DNA of 64,000 bases, from assembly GCF_009914755.1 (NCBI RefSeq), contig NC_060941.1, one strand, 5' to 3'. Origin of the DNA: the human T2T-CHM13v2.0 reference genome, Homo sapiens. The notes under the pieces were generated by a model. That model was not told where the DNA came from, ran no database searches, and was given only the letters and a program-made list of their open reading frames with translations. Positions 48,648 through 51,394 of the stretch are shown piece by piece. How positions within the stretch are numbered: position 1 is the first letter of the stretch; every line of letters starts with the position of its first letter. The position numbers and the translations under genes are program-made.

Positions 48648-50347
48648 GACCCTTGGCTCTGTCTTCTGGTTGCAGTCTCACTCCCGTCCCCTTTGAACTT
48701 TACTTTTCCAAATCTAAGTTTTCTGCTTTCAGGTTATGGGCCCCAGAAACACATACCTAAGTACCTGTGCCTCTGCACAAACCCTCATGAGGACTCCATC
48801 TGAGCCATTTCCATCTGCTTCCTCCTCACTGTACACAGCTTCCTGAACAGCTCTTTGCTGTCAACTCCAGCCCTGGCCCAGGAGGGAGGAAGGGTGTGAA
48901 ACGTGGATGATAGGTATGGTGTAGTTCAAACAGGATCAGAGAGAAGGGTTTGATTTTCATTGGAAGAGAAGTTCAGATGGGTATTTCAGGCAGAAAATAA
49001 GCCAAGTTTCAGATTTCAAACTTCAGAAGAGCAAATTTCAGTGTGGTCTGGAGTTTTGGGGAGCCTCTGAGACATTTCAGGGGATCCATAAGGTCAAAAC
49101 GATTTTCATAATAATAATGATATGTTATTTGCCTTTTCCACCGTGAGATGTTTGCACCCACATTGCCAAAACGGTGGTGGGTAAAATTGTTTAGCATAAA
49201 TCAAGGCAATGGCAACAAATTACTATTAGTCACTGTATTCTTCACTGCCAGACACAGGCAGTAACAAAGCACCAATGCCACTTAAGAATGTTTTTCACAG
49301 AGCAGTAAATGTTATTAATTTTATTAGCTCTCAAGTCTTGAGTACACATCTTTTTTTATTTTTATTTTATTTTATTTTATTTTTTGAGACAGAATCGCAC
49401 TCTGTCGCCCAGGCTGGAGTGCAGTGGTGTGATCTCAGCTCACCGCAAGCTCCGCCTCCCGGGTTCACGCCATTCTCCTGCCTCAGCCTCCCGAGTAGCT
49501 GGGACTACAGGCGCCCGCCACCACGCCTGGCTAATTTTTTGTATTTTTAGTAGAGACGGGGTTTCACTGTGTTAGCCGGGATGGTCTCAATCTCCTCACC
49601 TTGTGATCCACCCGCCTCGGCCTATTGTTTTAAAAATAAAAAAAGATGTGTACTCAAGACTTGAGAGCTAATAAAATTAATAACATTTACTGCTCTGTGA
49701 AAAACGTTCTTAAGTGGCATTGATGCTTTGTTACTGCCTGTGTCTGGCAGTGAAGAATACAGTGGCTACTAGCAATTTGTTGCTATTGCCTTGATTTATG
49801 CTAAACAATTTTACCCCCCACTGTTTTGGCAATGTGGGTGCAAACATCTCACGGTGGAAAAGGCAAATAACATATCATTATCATTATGAAAATCATTTTG
49901 ACCTTATGGATCCCCTGAAATGTTTCAGAGGCTCCCCAAAACTCCAGACCACACTGAAATTTGCTCTTCTGAAGTTTGAAATCTGAAACTTGGCTTATTT
50001 TCTGCCTGAAATACCCATCTGAACTTCTCTTCCAATGAAAATCAAACCCTTCTCTCTGATCCTGTTTGAACTACACCATACCTATCATCCACGTTTCACA
50101 CCCTTCCTCCCTCCTGGGCCAGGGCTGGAGTTGACAGCAAAGAGCTGTTCAGGAAGCTGTGTACAGTGAGGAGGAAGCAGGTGGAAATGGCTCAGATGGA
50201 GTCCTCATGAGGGTTTGTGCAGAGGCACAGGTACTTAGGTATGTGTTTCTGGGGCCCATAAACTGAAAGCAGAAAACTTAGATTTGGAAAAGTAAAGTTC
50301 AAAGGGGACGGGAGCGAGATTGCAACCAGAAGACAGAGCCAAGGGTC
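48648..50347. repeat. 717-bp inverted repeat (arms 48648-49364 and 49631-50347) with 266-bp spacer
   Basis: Manual reverse-complement alignment: 15 substitutions, no indels (about 97.9%); mirrored ORFs 49009-49197(-) and 49798-49986(+). Confidence 0.99.
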
Positions 50348-51394
50348 CGGCCGAGTACACATCTTTTTAATATTCAGTATGACGAATAAAGCACTGGTGC
50401 TGCTTAGTACAATGGTTGTCTCAAGGTAAACTTCTCATGTGCTTGTTTCAGTTGTGAGCTCAATTAGCCTCTTTCTCATGAAATGAATGCCGTTTTTACT
50501 TGAAAGAATGACTGAGAGCCAGGCTATGGATATTCAAACAGGTATTTTTCAGACACTTCTTGAAAATAAGTGAAGCAAACCTGTTAATTACAAGGGAAGC
50601 AATGACAATATTTGTTGCCAATGATAAAAATCAAGTTTTCAATTAAAATTAGAATTTTGAAGATCTTGTAACAGCCACAATTGAGCCTAGCGGTTCTCCA
50701 TATTTGAAGACTTACATGATGAGGCCTGTGGTGATATTAAAAAATGTGAATTTTTGGTACTGGATAATGAAATGTGTCAACATTTGAAATATCTGTGTGG
50801 CTCAGTGGACCAATATTTTCCAAATGACCAATGCATGATGTTACAAAGTAATGCATGGTGTAAGATTCATTCAAAGTTCAAGATAGATGGATGATTTTAA
50901 TACAATGAAGTACAAAAATGTTTGTTGATATAATTTCAGGTTCCTCATTTAATAAAGATGATTGTATCAAAGGAGAATACCCATAATTATCTTTTTAAAA
51001 TATTACTAAAACATTCTCCCTTTTCTAACTTCATATCTGTGTGAGGCTCAATTTTCTTCATGTTTTTAACCAAAATGACATATTACAACAGAACAGAATA
51101 AATGCTGAAGCAGATAGAAGGATCTAGCCATCTCCTATTAAGCTAGACGTTAAAGAGATTTGCAAAGGTGGATGACAATGTCACTCTTCTAACTAGTTTC
51201 TTTTTAGAATATAGTTATCTTTTATTTAAAAACATGTTAGCATGAGATGACCTTATTATGATTTTTAAATGAATGCTTTTATGATTTCTGCTTTAATTTC
51301 TAATATAGTGAATATTAATAAATATAACCTATATAATGAAAATATCCTTAAATGTGTAAAGTCATCCTGAGAACAACAAGTTTGAGAATCACTA
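49028..51394 (+). mobile_element. Charlie1a-like hAT DNA transposon relic, interrupted at 49356-50352
   Basis: 5' end gtgtggtc...aggtcaaaacgattttcataataat...ttatttgccttttc; 3' end tcctgagaacaacaagtttgagaatcacta. Confidence 0.85.
49356..49623 (-). mobile_element. AluY, broken near its 5' end; terminal ccggcc found at 50347-50352
   Basis: Y-diagnostic motifs, CpG-rich; 16-bp TSD gagtacacatcttttt at 49340-49355 and 50353-50368. Confidence 0.97.

What the first reader, a model, noticed from the sequence alone, without database searches (positions are those of the whole stretch)
48648..50368. 717-bp inverted duplication pasted inside an AluY, creating a near-perfect quasi-palindrome
Seen: arms 48648-49364 and 49631-50347 are reverse complements (15 substitutions, no indels) around a 266-bp spacer that is an antisense AluY. 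The AluY has TSD gagtacacatcttttt (49340-49355; 50353-50368) at a TT/AAAA-type site. The Alu breaks at ...cctcggcct (49623); 7 unexplained bases (attgttt) follow, then the inverted copy of the left flank including the TSD and the start of the Alu tail, then the Alu's own terminal ccggcc (50347-50352) and the second TSD. About 37 nt of Alu consensus is replaced. Inference: a fold-back double template switch (FoSTeS/MMBIR-like or repair synthesis) occurred after, or during completion of, the AluY insertion. Known: long high-identity inverted repeats with short spacers are hairpin/cruciform-prone and substrates for inversion.
Basis: partly seen in the sequence, partly recalled or inferred. Interest (0 to 1): 0.85.

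Follow-up and report, generated by a model that had tools for sequence, protein, structure and literature searches.

The report
Fold-back flank duplication inside an Alu
A 717-base stretch next to an old Alu insertion was copied backwards into the head of that same Alu, leaving a long near-perfect hairpin-forming repeat; it is a tidy fossil of a known kind of DNA copying error, with no sign of a function.

Summary
Arms 48648-49364 and 49631-50347 are reverse complements with 15 substitutions and no indels. The 266-nt spacer is an antisense Alu. The arm has only these two high-identity copies in the whole assembly.

New evidence here:
- An old interspersed repeat runs across the insertion site. 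In 18 of 26 paralogous loci it aligns colinearly across a virtual empty site, with a single copy of the 16-nt target-site duplication (TSD) motif. So Alu plus inverted arm is one insert at an L1-endonuclease-type site.
- 29 close genomic Alu copies show that 37 nt of Alu are replaced.
- The inverted arm carries the TSD and 9 nt of the Alu tail, so it was made after the tail existed.

Timing is not settled. An internal clock puts the duplication at about 0.4-0.5 of the Alu's age, with a 95% interval reaching 1.0-1.2. A later fold-back event is favoured, but an origin during insertion is not excluded.

The kind is known: fold-back priming, four-point template switching, and remodelling of breaks made by the L1 ORF2 protein (ORF2p). 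This is a new instance of it, of modest interest. Ape orthologues could not be examined.

The parts
48648..49364 (+). Left arm, the original template. It comprises unique flank, the inner part of an old interspersed repeat (from about 49030), TSD copy 1 and the first 9 nt of the Alu tail.
   Evidence: Paralogues show this arm is colinear with the sequence to the right of 50368.
49340..49355 (+). Target-site duplication, copy 1 (16 nt). It ends in a T run, and the empty site continues with AA.
   Evidence: The empty-site motif is present once in the paralogues.
49356..49385 (-). Alu A-rich tail, T-rich on the + strand, with interruptions. Its first 9 nt (49356-49364), holding two interruptions, are part of the duplicated arm.
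49386..49623 (-). Alu body, antisense on the + strand, covering roughly Alu positions 44-282. Together with most of the tail and the filler it forms the loop of the quasi-palindrome.
   Evidence: It is 93-95% identical to its best genomic relatives. It differs at 14 sites from their majority, 10 of them CpG-type.
49624..49630 (.). 7-nt filler at junction 1, with no microhomology and no convincing template.
   Evidence: The 7-mer occurs 6 times in 11 kb on both strands, against 2.4 expected from shuffles.
49631..50347 (-). Right arm, the inverted copy of 48648-49364. It includes an inverted TSD (49640-49655) and an inverted copy of the tail start (49631-49639).
50347..50352 (-). Six bases equal to the 5' terminus of the Alu. 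The first base is shared with the arm. Alternatively, 50348-50352 is a second copy of the CGGCC at 49618-49622.
   Evidence: reference Alu end; direct repeat.
50353..50368 (+). Target-site duplication, copy 2 (16 of 16 identical to copy 1).
50369..51100 (+). Right flank. It continues the old interspersed repeat that the Alu interrupted. The end coordinate is approximate.
   Evidence: alignments of paralogues run from about 49030 across the virtual junction to virtual position 1400-1560.

Best explanation
A full-length AluY-like element inserted by L1-type target-primed reverse transcription into an old interspersed repeat, with a 16-nt TSD at a T5/AA site. Later, DNA synthesis on the + strand left its template inside the Alu at about Alu position 44 (window 49623). 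This happened either at a break in the first 44 nt of the Alu or at a stalled fork.

Seven untemplated bases were added. The 3' end then folded back and copied the + strand itself, or the equivalent strand of the sister. Copying ran from inside the Alu tail (49364) leftwards through the TSD and 692 nt of flank to 48648. The new end was then joined back to the last 5-6 nt of the Alu next to the second TSD, with 1 nt of shared sequence (3 of 4 if one mismatch is allowed). The net effect is 37 nt of Alu lost and 724 nt gained.

The result is a 717-nt inverted repeat whose 266-nt loop is the remaining Alu. It has since drifted neutrally, giving 15 substitutions, and may have been partly homogenised between arms. 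No function is indicated.

Shown: the anatomy, the empty site, and the order 'tail first, copy second'.
Inferred: that the copy came well after the insertion, and whether it arose at a broken end or at a fork.
For: - Anatomy: the right arm contains the inverted TSD and 9 nt of the Alu tail, including two tail interruptions. The second direct TSD lies outside the arm.
- Both Alu ends sit next to intact TSDs, and 37 of the 43 nt expected beyond 49623 are missing.
- Genome-wide there are only two copies of the arm at 98-100% identity. The other 38 scored hits are 67-87% identical and cover only the inner part.
- Colinearity across the virtual empty site in 18 of 26 paralogous loci, many reading straight through a single TSD motif.
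- The arm differences look like evolved substitutions: 12 transitions to 3 transversions, 4 at CpG-related sites, and no indels even in homopolymer runs. This argues against an assembly artefact.
- The clock puts T(duplication)/T(Alu) at 0.39-0.49, with P = 0.044-0.123 against equal age.
- The mechanism is known. Foldback priming at breaks with Pol delta fill-in is described in the abstract of PMC10622511. In the four-point template-switch model, a 2->3 fragment overlapping L->1 creates a new inverted repeat (passages of PMC5453318).
Against: - The clock interval reaches 1.0-1.2 in two of three settings, so an origin at the time of insertion is not excluded. Arm-to-arm gene conversion would bias the ratio downward.
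- Mismatches are uneven: 11 fall in 49071-49289 and none in 48815-49070 (P about 0.02). Within the inner 219 nt the arms differ by 5%, which is as much as the Alu's own age would predict.
- Junction 1 has no microhomology, which is untypical of MMBIR/FoSTeS.
- The published fold-back systems mostly give very short inserts (about 5-34 bp; abstract of PMC11724301, listing) or hairpin-capped chromosomes. An interstitial 717-nt insert is neither.
- No orthologue with an intact Alu and no arm could be examined.
Confidence: 0.6

Rival explanations
1. The duplication was made during the Alu's own insertion. After first-strand cDNA synthesis the ORF2p-made break was not sealed at once. The bottom strand was resected for about 0.7 kb. 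The cDNA-bearing 3' end fell off the RNA near Alu position 44-45, folded back onto its own strand inside the new T-tail, and was extended through the TSD and flank. It was then joined to the reciprocal end. In this reading the Alu may simply be 5'-truncated, and the second CGGCC is a 5-nt duplication from an abortive first pairing of the two ends.
For: - Passages of the bioRxiv preprint 10.1101/2024.12.14.628481 (version of 2026-03-04, section 9 and the Figure 4 legend) describe L1 insertions in clones and tumours with inverted duplications of flanking DNA. The TSD is preserved in them, and they are explained by self-annealing of resected ORF2p-made ends that prime synthesis.
- Here the whole rearrangement lies between intact TSDs.
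- The fold-back point lies 9 nt into the tail.
- CGGCC flanks the insert on both sides.
- Equal age lies inside or at the edge of the clock interval.
- The inner arm divergence of 5% matches the Alu's age.
Against: - The point estimate of the age ratio is 0.4-0.5.
- The six bases next to TSD 2 equal the Alu's true 5' end, and the T at 49623 fits the Alu reference. A full-length Alu explains both most simply.
- The copied 9 nt of tail already carry two interruptions. By recalled knowledge, these usually accumulate after insertion.
- The preprint's examples of inverted duplication are on the reciprocal end, with 2-bp homology and small hairpins. Here the duplication is on the primary end, with a 266-nt loop and a 7-nt filler.
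Confidence: 0.25
2. The duplication is young, but the new copy was made by error-prone synthesis. Many of the 15 differences would then date from the event itself, not from later drift.
For: The majority of 26 paralogues was used as a proxy for the ancestral base. Of the 11 inner differences, 8 are derived on the right (new) arm and 3 on the left. All 8 lie within about 265 nt of the fold-back point.
Against: - 8 against 3 is not significant (two-sided binomial P = 0.23).
- The paralogues are only 60-71% identical over their long alignments, so they are a weak outgroup.
- The spectrum is transition-rich, with CpG-type changes on both arms, as expected from ordinary drift.
Confidence: 0.08
3. 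The structure is an assembly artefact, such as a fold-back chimeric read, or a chance juxtaposition of two copies of a repeat family.
For: None was found. Palindromic chimeras are a known long-read artefact (recalled, not tested).
Against: - The 15 differences are substitutions with a 4:1 transition bias and no indels.
- The arm contains unique DNA plus the TSD and Alu tail.
- Only two high-identity copies exist in the assembly.
- The junctions are clean and explicable.
Confidence: 0.02

Closest known systems
Four-point template-switch mutations (Loytynoja and Goldman 2017, PMC5453318; passages read)
   Same: A single switch-and-return replaces fragment 1->4 with the reverse complement of a nearby fragment 2->3. 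When 2->3 overlaps L->1, a new inverted repeat with a loop is created. Here 1 = 49623, 2 = 49364, 3 = 48648 and 4 = 37-38 nt beyond 1.
   Different: That model was applied to short mutation clusters, and its authors expressly did not model long-range events. Here the copied fragment is 717 nt and a 7-nt filler sits at the first switch.
Foldback priming at double-strand breaks / foldback inversions (PMC10622511, abstract read; PMC11724301, abstract seen in listing)
   Same: A resected 3' end anneals to its own strand and is extended, which duplicates the flank in inverted orientation around a loop.
   Different: The yeast events start from short natural inverted repeats and end as hairpin-capped, then dicentric, chromosomes, or as inserts of about 5-34 bp. 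Here no priming repeat is visible, the loop is 266 nt, and the product was rejoined interstitially.
Inverted duplications at ORF2p-induced break ends during L1 retrotransposition (bioRxiv 10.1101/2024.12.14.628481; passages read)
   Same: The event involves a retroelement insertion with a poly-A tail at an endonuclease-type site. The TSD is kept, and an inverted copy of flanking genomic DNA lies inside the insert.
   Different: The described cases are somatic or experimental L1 events on the reciprocal end, with 2-bp homology and small hairpins. This one is a fixed germline Alu. The duplicated flank is on the primary (tail) side and includes the tail. Simultaneity is not shown.
Twin priming (5' inversion of L1 or Alu)
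   Same: It produces an inverted segment at the 5' side of a retroelement, between intact TSDs.
   Different: In twin priming the inverted segment is retroelement cDNA. Here it is flanking genomic DNA plus the TSD. The terminal six bases are also in the sense expected for a normal 5' end, not for a twin-primed end.
FoSTeS / MMBIR
   Same: It involves two template switches, one of them onto the opposite-sense template nearby.
   Different: The defining junctional microhomology is absent at junction 1 and minimal at junction 2. The scale is sub-kilobase.

Membership tests
Alu insertion by L1 target-primed reverse transcription | Sequence similarity to Alu / 7SL-derived SINE | tested here: met
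   23 Alu matches in the window at 76-89% identity. Metazoa_SRP hit on the minus strand, E 1.3e-12. 93-95% identity to 39 scored genomic copies.
Alu insertion by L1 target-primed reverse transcription | A-rich 3' tail directly abutting a target-site duplication, and a TSD on both sides | tested here: met
   Tail at 49356-49385. The 16-nt repeats at 49340-49355 and 50353-50368 are identical at 16 of 16 positions.
Alu insertion by L1 target-primed reverse transcription | The empty site is continuous and has a T-run/AA nick site | tested here: met
   18 of 26 paralogous loci align across the virtual empty site. Several read through a single copy of the TSD motif followed by AATATT. The consensus of the endonuclease site itself is recalled.
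AluY subfamily | Subfamily-diagnostic positions | tested here: inconclusive
   The element groups with the 3-5 window Alus that lack the 2-nt insertion and share the same variants. It differs from the majority of 29 close genomic copies mostly at CpG sites. No named subfamily consensus was available, so the name 'Y' rests on recall.
Four-point template-switch event | The inserted fragment is the reverse complement of a nearby fragment, and one switch-and-return explains the change | tested here: met
   717 nt, 98% identical, no indels. The event is fully explained except for the 7 filler bases.
Four-point template-switch event | The ancestral state is seen in a close relative | not testable with these tools
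   No primate genomes are held. Only paralogues within the same assembly were available.
FoSTeS / MMBIR | Microhomology at each breakpoint junction | tested here: not met
   Junction 1 has 0 nt of microhomology and a 7-nt insertion. Junction 2 has 1 nt, or 3 of 4 with a mismatch.
ORF2p-break remodelling (inverted duplication made during retrotransposition) | The rearrangement lies between preserved TSDs at a TPRT insertion | tested here: met
   definition from passages read.
ORF2p-break remodelling (inverted duplication made during retrotransposition) | The duplication is the same age as the insertion | tested here: inconclusive
   Age ratio 0.39-0.49, 95% interval 0.16-1.22 across three settings, P 0.044-0.123.
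Twin priming | The inverted segment is retroelement sequence | tested here: not met
   The inverted segment is flank plus TSD plus 9 nt of tail.
Palindromes maintained by arm-to-arm gene conversion | Evidence of homogenised tracts between the arms | tested here: inconclusive
   A 256-nt tract has no difference, where the largest gap expected by chance reaches this size with P = 0.019. 11 of the 15 differences fall within 219 nt, P = 0.013. Both tests are post hoc.

The most novel reading that the evidence does not exclude
The inverted arm was made in the same event as the Alu insertion. The cDNA-bearing end of an unsealed ORF2p break folded back on itself and copied its own tail, the TSD and 0.7 kb of resected flank before it was joined to the other end. 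This would be a fixed germline, Alu-borne example of the break-end remodelling so far described for L1 in tumours and cell clones. It would also be the first on the primary (tail) end, with the retroelement itself as the hairpin loop.
Probability: 0.25. Interest if true: 0.5.

Novelty: new member of a known kind. Interest (0 to 1): 0.3.

Why it matters
The locus preserves both junctions, the filler, the TSDs and the template of a sub-kilobase fold-back duplication. Its anatomy can therefore be read base by base, which is rare for events this old. It lies between the very short templated inversions studied at induced breaks and the large fold-back inversions of disease genomes.

If ape orthologues showed it arose together with the Alu, it would extend retrotransposition-coupled break remodelling to Alu and to the germline.

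In practice, a 717-nt inverted repeat of 98% identity is a hazard for read mapping and variant calling. It is also a possible substrate for flipping of the spacer. No gene is annotated in the window, and nothing found here points to a function.

Tried and rejected
- Pfam scans gave no family. They covered five open fragments of the host repeat in the window (limit E <= 1) and the three longest open frames of its paralogues (limit E <= 0.1). My impression that it is a DNA-transposon fossil is recall only.
- The origin of the 7-nt filler was searched in 44000-55000 on both strands. The only longer matches are a 9-mer in the T-rich tail of the upstream Alu (47920) and an 11-mer at 54512. I judged them to be chance in low-complexity sequence.
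- The Rfam hits mir-1268 (68.9 bits against a gathering score of 83) and mir-3135 (36.4 against 80) lie inside the Alu. They are below threshold and are Alu-derived look-alikes.
- 'Alu inserted into a pre-existing palindrome' was rejected. The arm contains the TSD and tail, and the second TSD lies outside the arm.
- 'Two copies of a repeat family' was rejected.
- Twin priming was rejected on orientation.
- The first own-genome Alu search did not complete because the machine was busy. It succeeded when repeated unchanged.
- A literature search for the locus (WSCD1 with inverted-repeat terms) listed no paper containing WSCD1 among the 8 rows shown. This does not show that the locus is undescribed. 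No supplements were opened.
- The DNA fold of 48760-50235 gives the expected single long hairpin (-777.5 kcal/mol). This adds nothing beyond the repeat itself.
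Full report
**What is there**

The + strand between 48648 and 50368 reads, in order:
- left flank, ending in a 16-nt motif (49340-49355);
- a T-rich, interrupted tail (49356-49385);
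- an antisense Alu body (49386-49623);
- seven bases with no counterpart (49624-49630);
- the exact reverse-complement register of 49364 back to 48648 (49631-50347);
- the hexamer 50347-50352;
- the same 16-nt motif again (50353-50368).

The two arms are 717 nt long and differ at 15 positions: 12 transitions, 3 transversions, no indels. The repeat finder reports 720 nt at 98% if one extra mismatch is accepted. In the whole 64-kb window, the search for inverted pairs of at least 150 nt within 3 kb finds 8 pairs. The other 7 are 78-84% complementary. Several of their arms coincide with Alu matches. Single-stranded, the region folds into one long hairpin, as it must.

**The spacer is an Alu, and 37 nt of it are missing**

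- The spacer matches 23 other Alus in the window.
- It also matches the Rfam SRP model on the minus strand, below the gathering score, as expected for an Alu.
- A search of the window's own assembly returned 39 further scored copies at 93-95% identity.
- The majority sequence of 29 of these differs from the element at 14 sites in 238 nt. Ten are CpG-type transitions and four are not. One of the four is shared by 7 of the 29 copies.
- That majority sequence runs on for 43 nt beyond 49623, and its last six bases equal 50347-50352.
- The subfamily name 'Y' is my recall. What the calls show is that the element groups with the window's Alus of the same variant type and with many low-divergence genomic copies.

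**Independent evidence for the empty site**

No primate genome is held, but the assembly itself could be searched. The arm without the tail (692 nt) has exactly two copies at 98-100% identity, namely the two arms. The other 38 scored hits are 67-87% identical and cover only query positions 383-690, which is window position about 49030 onwards. So the inner part of the arm belongs to an old interspersed repeat.

I fetched 26 paralogous loci. I aligned them to a virtual empty site, made of the left flank up to 49355 followed directly by 50369 onwards. In 18 of the 26 loci the alignment crosses the junction colinearly. In many of them the TSD motif followed by AATATT is read straight through once. 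Three things follow:
- everything between the two direct 16-mers is an insert;
- the left arm is the original and the right arm is the copy;
- the site is a T-run/AA site of the kind L1 endonuclease nicks (the consensus of that site is recalled).

**Order of events**

The right arm includes the inverted TSD (49640-49655) and nine bases of the Alu tail (49631-49639). So the copy was made from a strand on which flank, TSD and tail were already continuous. That is the + strand, the strand that carries the first-strand cDNA. This excludes an Alu landing in an older palindrome. It also excludes a second-strand model, because the bottom strand is interrupted at the left edge of the TSD during insertion (inference from the standard model).

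**Junctions**

- Junction 1 (49623 | 49624-49630 | 49631) has no microhomology. Its 7-nt filler has no convincing source: the 7-mer occurs 6 times in 11 kb on both strands, against 2.4 in shuffles. The only longer matches lie in T-rich low-complexity sequence.
- Junction 2 shares one base between the arm and the Alu end, or 3 of 4 if a mismatch is allowed.
- The right-hand copy can therefore be read in two ways. It may be the Alu's true 5' end, meaning a full-length Alu with 37 nt replaced. Or it may be a 5-nt duplication beside a 5'-truncated Alu.
The second cannot be excluded.

**Timing**

I compared two internal clocks.
- Non-CpG changes: 4 in about 193 Alu sites, against 13 in about 1414 arm sites.
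- CpG decay: 10 of 22 in the Alu, against 2 of 10 ancestral CpG copies in the arms.
- For the arms I used the paralogue majority, which shows that two of the four CpG-related differences are gains, not losses.
- The joint estimate of T(duplication)/T(Alu) is 0.42 (95% interval 0.17-1.00, P = 0.054).
- It is 0.49 (0.20-1.22, P = 0.12) if the shared Alu variant is not counted.
- It is 0.39 (0.16-0.96, P = 0.044) under another CpG assignment.

A later event is therefore favoured, but not established.

Two observations cut the other way. First, the differences are uneven. Eleven lie in 49071-49289 and none in 48815-49070 (P about 0.02 and 0.013, post hoc). If the empty tract reflects arm-to-arm conversion, the true age is greater. 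Second, the inner 5% divergence is what the Alu's own age would give.

With assumed substitution rates of 0.5-1.2e-9 per site per year (recalled), 15 differences in 717 nt correspond to roughly 9-21 million years. The structure should therefore be shared with at least the African apes. That is a prediction, not a result.

**Polarity of the changes**

With the majority of 26 paralogues as proxy ancestor, 8 of the 11 inner differences are derived on the new (right) arm and 3 on the old arm. This is not significant (P = 0.23), and the outgroup is weak. It leaves a small opening for error-prone synthesis of the first few hundred copied bases.

**Mechanism**

The event fits the four-point description of a template switch-and-return, with points 3 < 2 < 1 < 4, which creates a new inverted repeat with a loop (passages of PMC5453318). 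It is about ten times longer than the events that model was applied to.

Physically, the simplest route is a break, or an arrested 3' end, in the first 44 nt of the Alu. The bottom strand would be resected for about 1 kb, and the + strand 3' end would fold back. Fill-in would proceed to about the resection limit, followed by end joining to the other side. Foldback priming with Pol delta fill-in is documented in yeast (abstract of PMC10622511). Short templated inverted insertions at breaks are too (abstract of PMC11724301, listing).

The main rival is that the break was the one ORF2p made for this very Alu. A 2026 version of a bioRxiv preprint (10.1101/2024.12.14.628481, passages read) shows L1 insertions with inverted duplications of flanking DNA and preserved TSDs. 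It explains them by self-annealing of resected ORF2p-made ends. The present case differs in four ways:
- it lies on the primary end;
- it includes the tail;
- it has a large loop;
- it has no junctional homology.

I put 0.60 on a later event, 0.25 on an origin during insertion, and the rest on minor rivals.

**Consequences**

Nothing points to a function. No gene is annotated in the window (hub note). Only sub-threshold Alu-derived microRNA look-alikes were found. The lost 37 nt lie in the Alu's 5' part, where by recall its internal promoter begins.

The repeat can form a hairpin or cruciform. However, distance and divergence between arms are reported to lower such instability (abstract of PMC10164571, listing). 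That fits the apparent survival of this structure for millions of years.

**Verdict**

The finding is real and cleanly resolved. It is a new instance of a known mutational kind, and the question of whether it is coupled to retrotransposition stays open. That question is decidable only with ape orthologues, which these tools do not hold.

Noticed in passing
window 49030-49355 and 50369 to about 51100: The Alu sits in an old interspersed repeat. At least 38 further copies in the assembly are 67-87% identical over the left part, and long colinear alignments (60-71% identity) reach up to about 1 kb. NCBI's mask does not cover it. Pfam finds nothing in its open fragments or in those of its paralogues, so the family is unnamed here.
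   Followed up: partly
window 48815-49070 versus 49071-49289 (left-arm coordinates): The arm differences are uneven. There are none in 256 nt and then 11 in 219 nt (P about 0.02 and 0.013, post hoc). This could be a conversion tract between the arms, or mutagenic synthesis near the fold-back point.
   Followed up: partly
window 49618-49622 and 50348-50352: The pentamer CGGCC flanks the inserted block as a direct repeat. The Alu carries it both at its 5' end and near position 45, which allows a second parse of the right junction.
   Followed up: yes
window 32437-32704: Another Alu of the same variant type, 17 kb upstream and in the same orientation, has an almost identical interrupted tail pattern (T5A T4A T4A T6 on the + strand). 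This may be convergent tail microsatellite evolution, or a tail inherited from a related source.
   Followed up: no
window 49482-49533 (-) and 49406-49465 (+): There are sub-threshold Rfam matches to mir-1268 (68.9 bits against 83) and mir-3135 (36.4 against 80) inside the Alu. These families look Alu-derived. The matches are not evidence of a microRNA gene here.
   Followed up: no
window 47920: The 9-mer spanning the last Alu base and the filler recurs in the T-rich tail of the neighbouring Alu (47904-48180). It is probably chance in low-complexity sequence.
   Followed up: partly
window 5405-7535: Three Alus form inverted pairs of 306-315 nt at 83% identity, with 840- and 1519-nt spacers. 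They are the next-best inverted repeats in the window and are ordinary Alu-Alu pairs.
   Followed up: no
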